From: a virus
Taxonomy: Duplodnaviria > Heunggongvirae > Uroviricota > Caudoviricetes
Length of the DNA stretch: 28,255 nucleotides
Virus record (IMG/VR): IMGVR_UViG_2778261277_000006
Coordinates: 1 to 28,255 of that record
Direction: 5' to 3' (one strand)
Each line of letters starts with the position of its first letter. Within the stretch, counting starts at the first letter, position 1. A model generated the notes under the pieces. That model had not been told where the DNA came from. It ran no database searches and was given only the letters and a program-made list of their open reading frames with translations. The translations under genes were made by a program, and so were the position numbers. Positions 1 to 26,473 of the stretch are shown here, in pieces.

Positions 1-2569
1 ATTGCTGACATCCGTAATGGACGTCCTGATTTCAGCCAGGTCAGGCGCAAGCTGACCGTTATCAATCTGCGTCCACAGCTCCTGAGCCAGATGGGTTTTC
101 CCTATCTCGCCTTTGAAAAAATCCAGATAACCGGATGCATCATCACTCGGCTGACCGACGGCCTCCACGAATGCCGATTTGCCAACGGTGTTCACACTGC
201 GGATATAAAAGTAATAATCATGGCCCGGTTTGATATTGATACTGGCGGCTATCCAGTACAGCGCCGTACCAAGATAGCGGGCTGCGGTTTCAACCTGCCT
301 GATATCGGTAATCCGCGTTTCCGAGAACCAGAACTCAAACTGTACCGTCGGGTCATAAACGGCAAGATGCGGCGTGGCGGTTATCTGAAAATAGCCCGGC
401 GTCAGCTCAATCCGCGACGGTGCTACCGGTGCGGCAATCCGGAACGATACCGACGCCGGATCGCCCTGCTGTCCCCACGCATTTACCGCCCGGACTGTCA
501 GCGTGTACCGCCCCAGTGCCAGTTGCGTGAAGCGGTATGTGGTTTCTGTCGTCCGGGCCGTGCTGACCAGCCGCTCACTGCCGTCGTCCGCTGTTACGGT
601 CAGACGGAGCAGGAAGCTCACCCCCTTCACCACCTTCGGCGTGTCCCAGCGCGCCAGCACCTGATATTCCCCGCTGTCTGCGGTGACTTCGGCAGTCAGG
701 TGCTGCACCGCTGGCGGCGTGACACCATTCACCGTGCCGCTCTGGTCGCCGTCAAAGTGCGCCCCGTTATCCACGATGGCCTCTTTTGCCGGTACATGCT
801 GCACGGCGGTGATGGCATACGTGCCGTCATCGTTCTCACGGATACTCACACAGCGAAACAGGCGCTGACGCAGCGTCGGCAGCTTCAGCCCCCATACGCT
901 GTATCCGGCAACGCCGTCAGGAACACGGCTCACTTTTACCTTCACGCCGTCGGTGACGGACTGGACCTCCACGCTGACCGGATTGCCACTTCCGTCAACC
1001 AGGCTTATCAGCGTGGTACCGGAGGATGGCAGCGTGATTTCACGGTCGAGCGTCAGCGTCCGGGTCTGGCTGTTTACCGCCAGCACGCGCCCGCCGGTGC
1101 TGATACCGGCATAGTCATCATCGCAGATTTCAATGACATCGCCCGGCACATGGCGAAGCCCTTCTGCGCCCACGCTGAAGTCCACGGTCTGCGTTTCCAG
1201 CAGTTCCGTTTTAATCAGCCACAGCCCGGCGCGGTGCGCCTGCCCACGACTGGTACAGCCAAAGGCATCCATCTTCGTGACGTTACGACCGTAACGGGCA
1301 ATGGCCTGCGTGTCCTCCACAAGCTCTGTCGCCGTCTCCTGGCCGTTGTCAGGGTCAATCCAGTTCACCTCAACGGCATTATGGCGGTCCTTCAGGGCGC
1401 TGAAGCTGTAGCGGAACGGCGCGCCATCACCCGGCATCGCCACATTACTGCGGTTATAGGTCCACACCTTATCCGATGGCCGGTCCTGCACGAACGTCAG
1501 CGTTTGCCCGTTCCATACCGGCATACAGCGCATCGCCGAGCAGAAATCGCTGAGCACATCCCACGCCTTACGTTGTGTGGTCAGCCAGGCATTACAGGTG
1601 ATGCGCGGCTCCGTGCCGCCAAAACCGTCCGGCACTGACTGGTCGCAGTACTGGCCGATGACATACAGCGCCCATTTATCCACATCTGCCGCACCAAGAC
1701 GTTTCCCCATGCCGTAGCGCGGGTGGGTCAGCATATCCCACAGACACCAGGCCGGGTTGTTGCTGTATGCCGGTTTTAACGTTCCGTCCCAGATACCGCT
1801 GTATTGCCGCGTCTGCGGGTTATAGTTCGACGGAACCTGCAGAATACGACCACGAAAATGGTAAGTGCGGTTCACCTGCTGGCTGCCGAACTGCTCAGAA
1901 TCCACCTGCACACCGACCAGTGCCGTGTTCGGGTAGCACTGTTTCACATCGATGATTTCGGTGTATGATGCCCAGATTGTCCTGTTCTGCAACTGGTCTG
2001 TGGTGCTGTCCGGCGTCATCCTGCGCATCCGGATACTGAACGGGCGCGGCGGCAGATTATCCACCACCACCGAGGCCAGATACTGCGAGGTGGTTTTGCC
2101 CTTAATGGTGATGTCTTTTTCCGTCACCCAGCCACCGTTACGCTGTATCTGAACCAGCAGGCGGACTGCCGACGGATTACGGTCCCCCTTTGAGGTGGTT
2201 TCCACCAGTGCCTGCACGCCGAAAGTAAAACGCAGACGATCAATGTTTGCCGACGTGATGGTCCGGGTGATCGGCGTGTCATATTTCACTTCTGTACCGA
2301 GCACCGTCTCGGAGCCTGATGATTCAAATCCCTCCGGCGGTGTCTGCTCCTGCTCACCGGAACGGAACACCACTGTCACTCCGGAAAAATTTGGCTTTCC
2401 ATCACTGTCAGTCACCGGTGTGCCGTTCAGCAGTACGCTTTTTAAGCCATCCACCGGACCTTCAACCGGCCCTTCGCTGATGGCATCGATCACACTCAGC
2501 AACTGCGTGGACTTCAGGTTGTCCCTCGCTTCACGCGGGGTATGTCCCTTACTGCTGCCTTTACCCATT
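1..2569 (-). CDS. J: Tail tip host-specificity protein J, N-terminal ~856 codons; 3' end runs past window start
   Basis: Minus-strand translation from ATG at 2569 reads [34 protein letters not shown]..., matching lambda gpJ; the minus-strand frame at positions 1-100 still reads ...[30 protein letters not shown]..., also gpJ-like. Not in the ORF track because it is open-ended. Sits after I in lambda order. Confidence 0.9.
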
Positions 2570-2628
2570 CCTCACGCTCCAGAAACGACAAAACCGCCCT
2601 GAGGCGGTTTCACATAAAACGTTTTTCA

Positions 2629-21285: not shown

Positions 21286-22347
21286 TCACAAAATTGTATT
21301 TGCTGATAACATACTGATTTCCTGAATGGTCTTATTGAACCGTTCTGTCTCAAGCTCAACACCTAACGCCCGACGCCCCAGCGCCATTGCTGCTTTTATT
21401 GTGGAACCGGATCCCATAAAGAAATCAGCAACCAGATCGCCAGGTCGACTACTGGCATTGATTATTTGCCTGAGCATATCCGCCGGTTTCTCACACGGAT
21501 GTTTGCCCGGGTAGAACTGAACGGGCTTATGCGTCCAGACATCGGTATAAGGCACGGAGACTGATACGGAGAAATAGCGCCGGAGAGATTTAAACTCATC
21601 CAGCAATTCAGAATATTTGCGATTCAGTGAATCATAAGATGCCACCAGTTGGTGGTGTGGTTGTTCCAGTTGTTGTTCCTGAAACTTCTCTGCCGCTATA
21701 CGGGAAAACAATGCCTGTAACTTCCGGTAGTCAGCCTCATTCGGCAACTGCCACTGACTGGCACCAAACCAGTGGGAAACCATATTTTTCTTACCAGTGG
21801 CTTCGGCAATCTGTTTTGCCGTTATACCCAGTTCGGCACGAGCATCCCTGAAATACGAAATCAGCGGTGCCATTATGTGCTGTTTGAGTTGCCTTTCTTT
21901 TGCCGCATAGCCGTCACTTTTGCCGCAATATGGCCCCTGGTAATGTTCAGCAAACAGAACACGCTCTGTGGCAGGAAAATATGCGCGCAGACTTTCTTTA
22001 TTACACCCATTCCAACGTCCGGACGGCTTCGCCCAGATGATATGGTTAAGCACGTTGAAACGTTCACGCATCATGATCTCAATATCAGATGCCAGGCGAT
22101 GTCCACAGAACAGGTAAAGGCTTCCGGCAGGTTTCAACACCCGCCAGAACTGGGCCAGACAGTGGTCCAGCCACTTAAGGTAATCTTCATCCCCTTTCCA
22201 CTGATTGTCCCAGTCGTTGGGTTTCACTTTGAAGTACGGCGGATCGGTAACAATCAGGTCAATGGAATCATCAGGCAGGGACTGAATAAAATGCAGGCAA
22301 TCAGCGTTGATTAAATCAACACTGTTTATTTTTACAGTATTTTTCAT
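21286..22347 (-). CDS. Orphan DNA methyltransferase, beta-class, probably N6-adenine
   Basis: 353 aa; motif IV DLIVTDPPYF near the N-terminus and AdoMet motif I DLVADFFMGSGSTIKAA near the C-terminus (IV-before-I order is beta class); no restriction endonuclease gene adjacent. Confidence 0.85.
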   Translation of the reverse strand: MKNTVKINSVDLINADCLHFIQSLPDDSIDLIVTDPPYFKVKPNDWDNQWKGDEDYLKWLDHCLAQFWRVLKPAGSLYLFCGHRLASDIEIMMRERFNVLNHIIWAKPSGRWNGCNKESLRAYFPATERVLFAEHYQGPYCGKSDGYAAKERQLKQHIMAPLISYFRDARAELGITAKQIAEATGKKNMVSHWFGASQWQLPNEADYRKLQALFSRIAAEKFQEQQLEQPHHQLVASYDSLNRKYSELLDEFKSLRRYFSVSVSVPYTDVWTHKPVQFYPGKHPCEKPADMLRQIINASSRPGDLVADFFMGSGSTIKAAMALGRRALGVELETERFNKTIQEISMLSANTIL

Positions 22348-22944: not shown

Positions 22945-23766
22945 ATGAATTTCTCTTACACTAAACAAGATGGACTGACAAAGAAGTGTCTTGTCAGAGG
23001 CTTTAAAGTTAACACAGCATCTACTGATATTCTTTTTGATCAAATAGCAAACTCTACAACCTTTCAGATAGGCTCTGTCATCAAAATCAGTGCAGATAAG
23101 CACCTTATGCTGAAGGCATTTGAAACAAACGCCAATTGCCACTATCTTCATGTAGCCATTTACAACCCTAAAGCACAAGTTTCTATAACTCCTTTAAAAA
23201 AAGCTGCAAGCGATTTACTGGATGTAGAGAACCTTGATGATCTTCATGCGTTCTTAATGATAAAAGGCAACCAGATAGCATCACTTATGCAAATCTCAAC
23301 TAATTGGTGCGAAGTTAAGATTTCTAAAATATTTAATCAATTTGGTATATCTATAACGCCAACAGCCATTCTAAAAAACAATGTTATTCAGAAAATTAAA
23401 GAGGACAAATTAAAAGCTCTGCATCTCAACATTGACGTTGATGAATCTGATTTCGTTCAAGCACCTAGTGTGTTAGAGTCAATATTCAAAAAAGAACCAA
23501 CAATTAGGTCCAAGGGCATCTCTGGGCACTTAACAATAGATGCTAAAGGTAATGCTGAATTAGCTCAGTCTATTGAGAATAATCCTGCTACATGGGTTGA
23601 TGATTTGGACAGAGATTTTTATATTGAGACGAAAAAAGGCGACAAGTTTTATAGTGACGATTTGAAAGTAACTAAGGTTTACTTTACCGTACCATATGGT
23701 TCTAAGTCTATAAATGCGAAATATGCTAAAGAAATCCTAGAGGATTTTGTAGCAAAAGAGCTATAA
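22945..23766 (+). CDS. Hypothetical soluble protein, 273 aa (first gene of AT-rich two-gene operon)
   Basis: ATG start, long ORF in a strongly AT-rich segment, opposite strand to all flanking phage genes; no Walker, HNH, HEPN or other motif recognised by eye. Confidence 0.7.
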   Translation: MNFSYTKQDGLTKKCLVRGFKVNTASTDILFDQIANSTTFQIGSVIKISADKHLMLKAFETNANCHYLHVAIYNPKAQVSITPLKKAASDLLDVENLDDLHAFLMIKGNQIASLMQISTNWCEVKISKIFNQFGISITPTAILKNNVIQKIKEDKLKALHLNIDVDESDFVQAPSVLESIFKKEPTIRSKGISGHLTIDAKGNAELAQSIENNPATWVDDLDRDFYIETKKGDKFYSDDLKVTKVYFTVPYGSKSINAKYAKEILEDFVAKEL

Positions 23767-23790
23767 TGATAGAAAACAAAGGAGGCTAAG

Positions 23791-24276
23791 ATGCTAAAAA
23801 ATATTAACACAACAGGGCTGATCGTATCAGCACTAAACATCATAGCCTCGTTAGGTTTCTCGATTTTTTTAACTGGAAGCCTAACTAATAATACTGATGC
23901 ATTAAATCTTGTAGCTAATGTATTCTCAATATTATCTGGATTTTTGCTTTTAGTAATAACTATGTCAGGTGAAAACTCAACGTTGCTTAGTAACATGAGC
24001 GCACTGGACGCAGCAAATCAAGAAAAAAGATTCTTGATGCGCTTTAACAAATACTATGCTCTTTTTTTACTTTACATACTCACATTGGCTTTGATTTTTA
24101 TATTCTATTTAATAACAAAAGATAAAACCAATAACTCAGCGATATTAACGAGCTTAAAATCTATAATTGGCCATTCAATTGCATTTCTAACATGCTTCTC
24201 ATTCATCCAGTCAACATTCATTCCACTTAAAATAAAAGAGCTATTTAAGGAAAAAAGAGAACTTAATAAGAAGTAA
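23791..24276 (+). CDS. Hypothetical integral membrane protein, 161 aa, four predicted TM helices
   Basis: AAGGAGG 6 nt upstream of ATG, 24 nt after the upstream stop; four hydrophobic segments (approx. residues 8-29, 38-58, 88-108, 124-144); Lys-rich C-terminus. Confidence 0.7.
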   Translation: MLKNINTTGLIVSALNIIASLGFSIFLTGSLTNNTDALNLVANVFSILSGFLLLVITMSGENSTLLSNMSALDAANQEKRFLMRFNKYYALFLLYILTLALIFIFYLITKDKTNNSAILTSLKSIIGHSIAFLTCFSFIQSTFIPLKIKELFKEKRELNKK

Positions 24277-24324: not shown

Positions 24325-24678
24325 TCACAGCATATGTAGTACGCCGTCGATAAACCCCATTGCTGTCTGTAATTCTTTTCTGATGGTCCCATCAGAACAT
24401 TTTCGTTTCTTAGCTATACTACGTAATGATATACCGATAACAAAATGAGCAATGATCAGCTCATATTCTTCTGGTTTATACTTCCGCAGGCGGGCGACAC
24501 AGCCATCAATCATGATGCCTTCATCATCATCACACTTGAGGCGTGACTTTTTACCATGTGGCAAAAGCCCCTTGAAGCCTGCCGCTATCGACTGCCAGTC
24601 GACACCACTATTTTCTGCTGCAGCCCATGCCCCCCAGCGGTCTAAAACCTCATACATATCACGCCCCATTACTATCAC
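24325..24678 (-). CDS. Q-family late antiterminator-like protein (QuuD/DLP12-type small Q)
   Basis: 117 aa, ...VLDRWGAWAAAENSGVDWQSIAAGFKGL...CDDDEGIMIDGCVARL...KCSDGTIRKELQTAMGFIDGVL; shares the signature blocks recalled for the DLP12 Q-like protein; downstream of rusA as in DLP12-type nin regions. Confidence 0.65.
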   Translation of the reverse strand: MIVMGRDMYEVLDRWGAWAAAENSGVDWQSIAAGFKGLLPHGKKSRLKCDDDEGIMIDGCVARLRKYKPEEYELIIAHFVIGISLRSIAKKRKCSDGTIRKELQTAMGFIDGVLHML

Positions 24679-25036
24679 CTCTGATTTCGCAAATCTTCAC
24701 GCCCAGCCGACCACCAGGAACGAGCTGACCGCACACAATATTAATTTCATCGAACTGCTCGTCGTCTATGAGCAGCCCCGCATGTGTCAGTGCATCCAGT
24801 GGTGCTTTCAGAATATTGTCCAGGTCACGACGGCGCTTATCCGGTGGCTCTGCAATAATCTTTATCGCCAGCCTTCCGGACAGGTTTAATTTCAACCGCT
24901 GCTGGCGAACAATAAGCGCCACATCCCGACGATAACGCTTTCCTGCCTCCTAGATAAAATATGTGCCACCATGGCGTCGCCAGTAGGTGTTCACCGTTGG
25001 TGGGTAAGGCAAAACAAATTCTGTACGTTCAGTCAT
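24659..25036 (-). pseudogene. rusA: rusA Holliday-junction resolvase homologue with in-frame amber (TAG) at codon 29
   Basis: From ATG: MTERTEFVLPYPPTVNTYWRRHGGTYFI-TAG-EAGKRYRRDVALIVRQQRLKLNLSGRLAIKIIAEPPDKRRRDLDNILKAPLDALTHAGLLIDDEQFDEINIVCGQLVPGGRLGVKICEIRGDSNGA; both sides of the TAG align to RusA in one frame. The track reports only the post-stop part (24659-24922, GTG start). Confidence 0.7.
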
Positions 25037-26095
25037 TTATGCTTTCCACTTCAGGACGCCCGAATTTCTCACGTGTATTAAAAAACGAATCAGTAACACC
25101 AACTGGCTACCGTGTTTCGCTTCAAATTCTTTTACCCCGGCATGCAGTTCGTTATGGCATTTACGACACAGCGGAATAACGAACAAATCATCAGCCTTTG
25201 TTCCCATTCCTCCCAGACCATGTCCAATGATGTGATGCGGATCATCTGCCTGATTGCCGCACGTCATGCACTTCTGTGTTTTTACCCAGCGCGTATATAC
25301 AGGCATCTCTTCCCGTTGTGGTTTCTTGCGCTGGAGATACTGAGCCGGAGACTCCGGATCAACAGTGATGCTTACCACCGTCTTTTCCTGTGGCGGGTTA
25401 TGTTGCTGGTGAGAGCAAGACGGCGGCACTATATTTTTTGTGCGCTGTTTCAGTATGCTGGTGGCTGTCTGCTCTCCCGGTACAATGTCGCTCTCCCGGT
25501 ACACAGAGCGGATTTTTTCTACGGGCAATCCCAGTGAACGATGTAATACTGCCTCCGGTAGCGCCTCCGCCACCTGATTGCATACCGCCCACCAGGATAA
25601 TTCAGCCAGAGATAATTCGCGCTCCTGCGCACCGCTTATTGCATGGCGGATGACATCAATCATCCAGGCTGTCAGATTTTGTTGAGCAAGCAGCTCCAGC
25701 GATTCTGATGTCTGGTCACGAAGCTGGTTGTCGCAGTGCCAGCACAACACCATCGCGCCGGTACCGTAACGGTGTATGACGGTTTCACTGTGATGGTAAT
25801 CACCATGAGGCCACTGGCAGGATTTAACATTGCGCAACAGCCAGTCAGACAATGCACCAGTACCACCAGCAGCACGAATCACACGCTCATTGCTGAAAAA
25901 CGGCAGTAATGATTTATCCTCCGCCAGCGGCTGGCGAACGGCGGGAACAACTCCGGACGGCAGACTGCGCATGCTTTTCGGTTCCGGCTCCACCAGCACC
26001 CGGGTATTGTGGAATACCGGCATGGATTCACGGCCCGGCTTAACGATCACCAGCCCGAGTTCCGGTACAAGAACAGGTCGAAGTAATACCCGCAC
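25037..26095 (-). CDS. nin-region protein with C-terminal Cys/His zinc-finger (HNH-like) motif; resembles DUF968-type prophage proteins
   Basis: 352 aa; C-terminus CMTCGNQADDPHHIIGHGLGGMGTKADDLFVIPLCRKCHNELH (CxxC...HH...CxxCHxxxH); lies immediately upstream of rusA. Family name is from memory. Confidence 0.65.
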   Translation of the reverse strand: MRVLLRPVLVPELGLVIVKPGRESMPVFHNTRVLVEPEPKSMRSLPSGVVPAVRQPLAEDKSLLPFFSNERVIRAAGGTGALSDWLLRNVKSCQWPHGDYHHSETVIHRYGTGAMVLCWHCDNQLRDQTSESLELLAQQNLTAWMIDVIRHAISGAQERELSLAELSWWAVCNQVAEALPEAVLHRSLGLPVEKIRSVYRESDIVPGEQTATSILKQRTKNIVPPSCSHQQHNPPQEKTVVSITVDPESPAQYLQRKKPQREEMPVYTRWVKTQKCMTCGNQADDPHHIIGHGLGGMGTKADDLFVIPLCRKCHNELHAGVKEFEAKHGSQLVLLIRFLIHVRNSGVLKWKA

Positions 26096-26446: not shown

Positions 26447-26473
26447 GAAAAAACAAAACCCGCCAAAGCGGGT
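26447..26473 (-). terminator. Intrinsic terminator downstream of the nin-region two-gene moron
   Basis: Minus strand ACCCGC-TTTG-GCGGGT followed by TTTGTTTTTTC; ~40 nt after the stop of the 153-aa membrane protein gene. Confidence 0.5.

What the first reader, a model, noticed from the sequence alone, without database searches (positions are those of the whole stretch)
24659..25036. rusA homologue carries an in-frame amber codon at codon 29
Seen in sequence: a single minus-strand frame reads a RusA-like N-terminus (…LPYPPTVNTYWRRHGG…), then TAG, then RusA-like sequence through the conserved DKRRRDLDN region to the stop. Inference: the resolvase is inactivated (pseudogene), or expressed only by amber suppression or re-initiation at the downstream GTG. 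Since rusA overlaps the start of the Q-like gene, a premature stop could also affect coupled translation of Q.
Basis: seen in the sequence. Interest (0 to 1): 0.5.

Follow-up and report, generated by a model that had tools for sequence, protein, structure and literature searches.

The report
Nonsense-mutated rusA gene in E. coli prophage
A lambda-like prophage of Escherichia coli carries a copy of the accessory DNA-repair gene rusA that a single real, inherited base change (TCG to TAG) has turned into a pseudogene, which is an ordinary kind of prophage gene decay.

Summary
On the minus strand, 25036..24659 is one 125-codon RusA frame with TAG at codon 29 (24952..24950). Both sides of the stop are RusA: Pfam PF05866 scores 57 bits, and the frame aligns without gaps to the solved E. 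coli RusA.

It is not a sequencing error. The same 378-nt allele occurs in at least 12 independent assemblies or read sets.

Intact rusA genes in other E. coli prophages (L047, L050) differ from it at one base only, window 24951 (C there, A here). So the event is a single C-to-A change converting Ser-29 (TCG) to amber. That serine aligns with S28 of K-12 RusA.

The window has no tRNA gene, so no phage-borne suppressor. The only restart codon (GTG, codon 39) would give an 87-aa fragment lacking strand beta1, the S13-region DNA contact, the 15-28 loop and conserved R35.

The downstream Q gene has its own strong, unpaired Shine-Dalgarno sequence. The untranslated stretch is G-rich and so a poor Rho loading site. 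An effect on Q is therefore unlikely.

The rest of the prophage looks intact, as expected for a dispensable nin-region gene.

Verdict: real, ordinary pseudogene; low interest.

The parts
24659..25036 (-). rusA pseudogene: full 125-codon RusA reading frame interrupted at codon 29
   Evidence: Translation; Pfam PF05866 at 57.4 bits spanning the stop; gapless alignment to PDB 1Q8R/2H8C; 377/378 nt identical to intact rusA of L047/L050.
24950..24952 (-). Amber codon TAG (codon 29). The mutated base is window 24951: A on the coding strand, C in intact alleles (TCG, Ser).
   Evidence: The serine aligns with S28 of E. coli K-12 RusA.
24950..25036 (-). Residual N-terminal ORF: 28 codons plus the TAG. 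This is the only product expected from normal initiation. It covers strand beta1 and the flexible loop.
   Evidence: the ORF listing; mapping to K-12 RusA residues 1-27; structure description in PMC1636454.
24659..24922 (-). Residual 87-codon ORF from GTG (codon 39) to the native stop. Automatic pipelines call it as a short 'RusA' gene. It keeps the Arg-rich loop and the catalytic Asp triad (D71, D73, D92) but lacks the N-terminal third.
   Evidence: (an 87-aa gene call with a PF05866 hit). No Shine-Dalgarno sequence at working distance: AGGAGG lies 23 nt upstream of the GTG.
24731..24733 (-). Codon 102 TGC (Cys), where most relatives have CGC (Arg). This is an older polymorphism also found in intact alleles, not decay after inactivation.
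   Evidence: (the exact S29/C102 protein P0046 exists in E. coli).
24325..24669 (-). Q-family antiterminator gene (114 aa). Its ATG at 24669 overlaps the end of rusA by 11 nt.
   Evidence: Pfam PF06530, E = 8e-46; gene calls in sister loci; the same overlap is annotated in E. coli 537-20.
24674..24681 (-). Shine-Dalgarno sequence GAGGTGAT of Q, 4 nt upstream of the ATG
   Evidence: Sequence. Unpaired in the predicted minimum-energy fold; the fold is no more stable than shuffled sequence (z = 0.59).
25037..26095 (-). DUF968/HNH-like gene (352 aa). Its TAA stop directly abuts the rusA ATG (..GCATAAATGACT..), forming the upstream member of the DUF968-rusA-Q block.
   Evidence: Pfam PF06147, E = 5e-63; junction sequence; the same gene order in E. 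coli prophages.

Best explanation
This is a genuine, vertically inherited nonsense allele of a prophage rusA gene, and functionally a pseudogene. A single C-to-A transversion at window 24951 changed Ser-29 (TCG) to amber (TAG) in the rusA of a lambda-like E. coli prophage. Ribosomes that start at the rusA ATG, which abuts the DUF968 stop codon, terminate after 28 residues, so no active Holliday-junction resolvase is made. The gene lies in the dispensable nin-type block between the replication genes and Q, so its loss is tolerated. The prophage keeps open late, lysis and Q genes. Q translation should be unaffected because Q has its own ribosome-binding site. Shown: the codon, its ancestry, its recurrence across samples, homology on both sides of the stop, and the absence of a tRNA gene in the window. 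Inferred: loss of enzymatic activity, dispensability, and no effect on Q.
For: TAG at codon 29 lies within a frame that is RusA on both sides. The identical 378-nt allele is present in L002-L012, L014, L016, L018 and L020, which come from NCBI assemblies, Logan assemblies of SRA runs and one ENA metagenome. Sister prophages with the identical Q protein carry TCG (L013, L015, L017, L019, L021). L047 and L050 differ from the window rusA only at nt 86, and the exact intact protein P0046 is recorded as E. coli RusA. Compared with the 91.5% allele L001 there are 25 synonymous and 7 non-synonymous differences, so the gene is normally under purifying selection. The window has no tRNA. An 87-aa restart product would lack the equivalents of strand beta1, the S13-region DNA contact, loop 15-28 and conserved R35 described for RusA (PMC1636454). 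Q has the Shine-Dalgarno sequence GAGGTGAT, unpaired, and the 281-nt stretch after the TAG has 57 C against 88 G. The late region shows open frames with Pfam matches for Nu1, A, portal, protease, capsid E, Z, V, G, T, H, M, L, K, I and the start of J.
Against: Nothing here measures protein or activity. Basal UAG read-through, or a chromosomal suppressor in the host (which is not in the window), could give traces of full-length RusA, and RusA is reported to act at low levels. Carriers of the amber allele differ from one another by up to 12 SNPs in 10 kb, so the allele has persisted. Persistence is compatible with neutrality but does not exclude selection for loss.
Confidence: 0.9

Rival explanations
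1. Leaky expression: the amber codon is read through, either at the basal level or by a host amber suppressor. This would yield small amounts of full-length, active RusA, making the gene down-regulated rather than dead.
For: Everything downstream of the TAG is an intact RusA frame with the catalytic residues D71, D73 and D92 and the Arg-rich loop. The allele is only one mutation from an intact gene. From general knowledge (Lloyd laboratory work on rus suppressors of ruv), modest RusA expression is enough for a phenotype in K-12.
Against: The window has no tRNA gene. Sister lineages have a sense codon at this position, so the stop is not conserved. Natural E. coli isolates rarely carry amber suppressors, and basal UAG read-through is low (general knowledge). 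No stimulatory element was found.
Confidence: 0.05
2. Re-initiation: ribosomes terminating at the TAG restart at GTG codon 39, 27 nt downstream. This would produce an 87-aa N-terminally truncated RusA that keeps some function, whether resolvase, DNA binding or dominant-negative.
For: An in-frame GTG ORF of 87 codons exists and carries the catalytic half of the protein. The mutation creates AGGAGG (24951..24946).
Against: AGGAGG lies 23 nt from the GTG, outside the working Shine-Dalgarno spacing, and there is no start codon nearer. The fragment lacks one strand of the four-stranded sheet, the DNA contact around S13, the 15-28 loop proposed to read the junction centre, and conserved R35 (PMC1636454). 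A folded, active dimer is therefore unlikely.
Confidence: 0.03
3. Sequencing or assembly artefact: the true sequence is TCG.
For: The difference is a single base, and the window is a draft contig.
Against: The identical allele was assembled independently from at least 12 samples by different pipelines (NCBI submitters, Logan, ENA).
Confidence: 0.01

Closest known systems
RusA Holliday-junction resolvase of E. coli K-12 cryptic prophage DLP12 and phage 82 (Pfam PF05866; PDB 1Q8R, 2H8C, 2H8E)
   Same: Same family and length, with a gapless alignment over residues 7-118. The catalytic Asp triad, the Arg-rich minor-groove loop and N73/K76 are conserved. The gene sits in a lambdoid prophage just upstream of Q.
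   Different: The reading frame is broken at the codon equivalent to S28, so no full-length protein is encoded. From general knowledge, K-12 rusA is intact but transcriptionally silent until IS insertions upstream activate it.
Intact rusA alleles of closely related E. coli prophages (P0046 in L047/L050; P0016 in L013/L015/L017)
   Same: 377/378 nt identical (L047, L050) or 376/378 nt identical (L013, L015, L017), with the same DUF968-rusA-Q arrangement.
   Different: They have TCG (Ser) at codon 29 and are annotated as RusA-family crossover junction endodeoxyribonuclease.
Point-mutation pseudogenes in prophage accessory genes (the lambda nin-region type)
   Same: A non-essential gene between the replication genes and Q, disrupted by one substitution, while the essential late genes remain open. 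A second, independently damaged rusA allele was seen in L046.
   Different: Nothing distinctive. The prophage here otherwise looks complete within the contig rather than heavily decayed.

Membership tests
RusA endodeoxyribonuclease (PF05866) | Significant match to the family profile | tested here: met
   PF05866, E = 3e-15, 57.4 bits (cut-off 22.8), residues 10-101 across the stop.
RusA endodeoxyribonuclease (PF05866) | Collinear homology to the structurally solved RusA, including the N-terminal segment | tested here: met
   phmmer against PDB: 1Q8R_A, E = 1.1e-22, query 7-118 to chain 6-117, no gaps.
RusA endodeoxyribonuclease (PF05866) | Catalytic aspartates D70, D72 and D91 and the Arg-rich DNA-binding loop 66-69 | tested here: met
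   D71, D73 and D92 plus K67-R68-R69-R70 are present in frame. Residue roles are from PMC1636454.
RusA endodeoxyribonuclease (PF05866) | Uninterrupted ORF of about 120 aa encoding the whole domain | tested here: not met
   TAG at codon 29, leaving ORFs of only 28 and 87 codons. It is therefore a pseudogene of the family, not a functional member.
RusA endodeoxyribonuclease (PF05866) | Holliday-junction cleavage or suppression of ruv mutants | not testable with these tools
   Needs biochemistry or genetics.
Programmed stop-codon read-through or recoding | The stop codon is conserved among homologues | tested here: not met
   All other alleles examined have TCG at this codon (L001, L013, L015, L017, L019, L021, L047-L052).
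Programmed stop-codon read-through or recoding | A cognate suppressor tRNA encoded nearby | tested here: not met
   ARAGORN finds no tRNA in the 28-kb window. The host chromosome is not available.
Lambdoid nin-type region | Gene order of accessory nuclease genes, then a resolvase, then the Q antiterminator, then lysis and late genes | tested here: met
   DUF968/HNH, rusA, Q, methylase, holin region, lysozyme, Rz, then Nu1 and A through J.

The most novel reading that the evidence does not exclude
The amber allele is maintained rather than neutral. One version is selected loss of a resolvase that is costly to the lysogen. Another is a conditional switch in which trace read-through or the 87-aa restart fragment modulates recombination or Q expression. 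This could explain why the allele persists through some diversification of an otherwise intact prophage.
Probability: 0.04. Interest if true: 0.35.

Novelty: already known. Interest (0 to 1): 0.07.

Why it matters
It matters little beyond annotation. It shows that the 87-aa 'RusA' gene called by automatic pipelines in this and sister contigs is the tail of a nonsense-mutated gene, and it identifies the exact progenitor allele. It is one more example that nin-region recombination genes of lambdoid prophages can be lost without visible damage to the rest of the phage. It would become more interesting only if the truncated or read-through product proved to have a function.

Tried and rejected
Exact-pattern scans around the TAG found nothing in the GTDB species-representative genomes, IMG/VR viral contigs or JGI metagenome contigs. 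The allele was found only by exact-protein look-ups.

The protein-based scan of representative genomes gave only alleles of 92% identity or less in E. coli, Shigella and E. albertii, so it did not help with ancestry.

A literature search for the assembly accessions returned nothing, so the strain is unnamed. The host is inferred to be E. coli from the names NCBI gives to the exact Q and RusA proteins.

I first read the second substitution (R102C) as drift after inactivation. I rejected that because the intact S29/C102 protein exists.

I considered a +1 frameshift bypass of the stop and rejected it. The +1 frame is the 26-codon ORF 24892..24972 and does not rejoin RusA.

I considered that the prophage lacks gpJ, since no ORF was listed below 2629. 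I rejected that because J runs off the contig end.

PADLOC gave no hits for the neighbouring unknown genes.

Full report
**What is in the sequence**

Read on the minus strand, window 25036..24659 is a single frame of 125 codons plus stop:

MTERTEFVLPYPPTVNTYWRRHGGTYFI*EAGKRYRRDVALIVRQQ...PPDKRRRDLDNILKAPLDALTHAGLLIDDEQFDEINIVCGQLVPGGRLGVKICEIRGDSNGA*

TAG is codon 29, at window 24952..24950. With X at position 29 the frame matches Pfam RusA (PF05866, E = 3e-15, 57.4 bits against a cut-off of 22.8) over residues 10-101, so the match spans the stop. With Ser at position 29 it aligns without a gap to the solved E. coli K-12 RusA (1Q8R, 2H8C), query 7-118 to chain 6-117, E = 1e-22.

The one small correction is that the downstream in-frame GTG (24922) is codon 39.

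**Context**

The window is the whole 28,255-bp contig NLFZ01000047.1 of assembly GCA_002225765.1. NCBI labels the exact Q protein and the exact intact RusA relatives as Escherichia coli.

The contig is a lambda-like prophage. All of the following are on the minus strand:
- the start of gpJ, which runs off the contig end;
- I, K, L, M, tape-measure H, T, G, tail tube V, Z, capsid E, S49 protease, portal, terminase A and Nu1;
- Rz, lysozyme, DUF1327 and a DNA methylase;
- Q (PF06530, E = 8e-46), rusA, a DUF968/HNH-like gene and a dATP/dGTP pyrophosphohydrolase-DUF551 gene.

The DUF968 stop TAA abuts the rusA ATG. The rusA stop overlaps the Q ATG (24669) by 11 nt. The same DUF968-rusA-Q block is annotated in E. 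coli genomes. All large late genes are open frames with full-length Pfam matches, so within this contig the prophage does not look generally decayed.

**Is the TAG real?**

An exact-protein look-up of the 87-aa residual ORF and of the Q protein retrieved many contigs. The 378-nt rusA stretch is 100% identical, TAG included, in L002-L012, L014, L016, L018 and L020. These come from:
- four further NCBI assemblies: GCA_024713285.1, GCA_012340855.1, GCA_036437875.1 and the window's own;
- seven Logan assemblies of separate SRA runs;
- one ENA metagenome assembly.

A sequencing or assembly error is therefore excluded.

Over about 10 kb of flank these carriers are 99.88-100% identical to the window (0-12 SNPs). 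Sister prophages with an intact rusA are 99.1-99.66% identical. The amber allele thus marks a sub-lineage of one prophage that has already diversified slightly.

The allele is absent from the 5,426 complete RefSeq E. coli genomes, where the best rusA match is 91.5%. It is also absent from the phage collection.

**Ancestral state**

Every other allele examined has TCG (Ser) at codon 29:
- the 91.5% allele of E. coli 537-20;
- the 99.2-99.5% alleles in L013, L015, L017, L019 and L021;
- L047-L052.

The window differs from L013, L015 and L017 at two bases: C86A (S29 to stop) and C304T (R102C). I first took R102C for drift after inactivation. That is wrong, because the exact intact protein with S29 and C102 exists (P0046, named E. 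coli or E. coli O128 RusA, on 21 contigs). The rusA DNA of L047 and L050 differs from the window at nt 86 only. The converse combination (amber with R102) is not on record.

The event is therefore one C-to-A transversion at window 24951, on an allele that already carried Cys-102. The serine aligns with S28 of K-12 RusA.

Against the 91.5% allele there are 25 synonymous and 7 non-synonymous differences. This shows that rusA is normally kept under purifying selection.

**Consequence for RusA (inferred)**

Normal initiation yields a 28-residue peptide.

According to the RusA structure paper (PMC1636454), the monomer is a four-stranded mixed sheet flanked by two helices, and:
- residues 15-28 form a flexible loop proposed to enter the junction centre;
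- residues around S13 contact DNA;
- conserved R35 is proposed to guide the backbone;
- the Arg-rich loop 66-69 and D70, D72 and D91 form the binding and catalytic site.

The stop lies at the end of the flexible loop. A restart at GTG39 would begin at the equivalent of V38. It would keep the catalytic half (D71, D73, D92, K67-R70) but lose strand beta1, the S13 region, the loop and R35.

The mutation does create AGGAGG (24951..24946). However, that site is 23 nt from the GTG and no other start codon lies at working distance. A +1 shift does not rejoin the RusA frame. No tRNA gene is present in the window. Loss of function is the best-supported reading. Trace read-through cannot be excluded computationally.

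**Consequence for Q (inferred)**

Q has an 8-nt match to the anti-Shine-Dalgarno sequence (GAGGTGAT, 24681..24674) 4 nt before its ATG. In the predicted fold of the 131-nt surrounding RNA this site is unpaired, and the fold is no more stable than shuffled sequence (z = 0.59). There is thus no sign that upstream translation is needed to expose it.

The 281 nt left untranslated after the TAG contain 57 C and 88 G. C/G reaches 1.0 in only two of eleven 78-nt windows, so it is a poor candidate for a Rho loading site.

A strong terminator-like hairpin lies upstream of the block, at 26473..26448 on the minus strand. This suggests that transcription reaching DUF968-rusA-Q is antiterminated anyway, as in lambda. 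If so, Rho-dependent polarity would also be blunted, but this point is inference.

**Comparison with what is known**

This is a pseudogene copy of a well-known family. It meets the sequence criteria for RusA but fails the requirement of an uninterrupted ORF.

It does not meet the criteria for programmed read-through: the stop is not conserved and no suppressor tRNA is nearby.

From general knowledge, lambda's nin region can be deleted and K-12's own rusA is silent, so loss of this gene is expected to be tolerated. A second, independently damaged rusA allele turned up in passing (L046, an N-terminal deletion or scramble, also called as an 87-aa 'RusA'). This suggests such decay is not rare.

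**Verdict**

The suppression, re-initiation and Q-coupling ideas have no support.

This is an ordinary, already understood kind of feature. It is useful mainly as an annotation correction. Confidence in the pseudogene reading is 0.9, and interest is 0.07.

Noticed in passing
window 22945-24276 (+ strand): An AT-rich (32-35% GC) two-gene insert (273 aa and 161 aa, the latter with weak membrane-protein-like hits). It is encoded opposite to the phage genes, immediately downstream of Q. It has no Pfam family above threshold and no PADLOC hit. It is conserved in all sister prophages that share this Q allele, while prophages with the other Q allele carry a different pair there (477 aa plus a 352-aa PF04245/NA37 protein). 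It looks like an exchangeable moron, possibly a defence cargo slot.
   Followed up: partly
L046 1-330 (Logan SRR1184675 contig): Another rusA allele (P0008; the same 87-aa gene call appears in E. coli 2846750 and 2871950). Its N-terminal region is scrambled or deleted (TACTGG-CAAGCTTGAG-TCTCGGAGG in place of the 31-nt CGACGCCATGG... segment) and contains in-frame TGA codons. This is an independent inactivation of rusA in the same N-terminal region.
   Followed up: partly
window 25096-25542 (3' half of the DUF968 gene): 15 of the 34 SNPs separating the amber lineage from the intact sister lineage (L015, L019) cluster in about 450 bp just upstream of rusA, and they are mostly synonymous. This looks like a recombination tract rather than point-mutation divergence.
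   Followed up: partly
window 26448-26473 (- strand): A strong intrinsic-terminator-like hairpin (ACCCGC-TTTG-GCGGGT followed by TTTGTTTTTT). It lies in the gap between the 153-aa gene and the small gene that precedes DUF968, a position analogous to the lambda nin-region terminators.
   Followed up: no
window 1-2628 (- strand): The contig ends inside the tail-tip gene J (96.6% identical to gpJ of E. coli GXU-23-25-310). The plus-strand ORFs listed there (515 aa, 135 aa) are antisense artefacts.
   Followed up: yes
protein cluster of the intact RusA: The 90%-identity cluster holding the 125-aa RusA is represented by unrelated 273-aa 'antitermination protein' sequences and is filled mostly with them. 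This looks like a clustering artefact in the protein collection, so cluster size (4648) should not be read as the abundance of RusA.
   Followed up: partly
window 21286-22347 (- strand): A 353-aa N6/N4 DNA methyltransferase (PF01555) sits between the Q-proximal insert and the holin and lysis genes.
   Followed up: no
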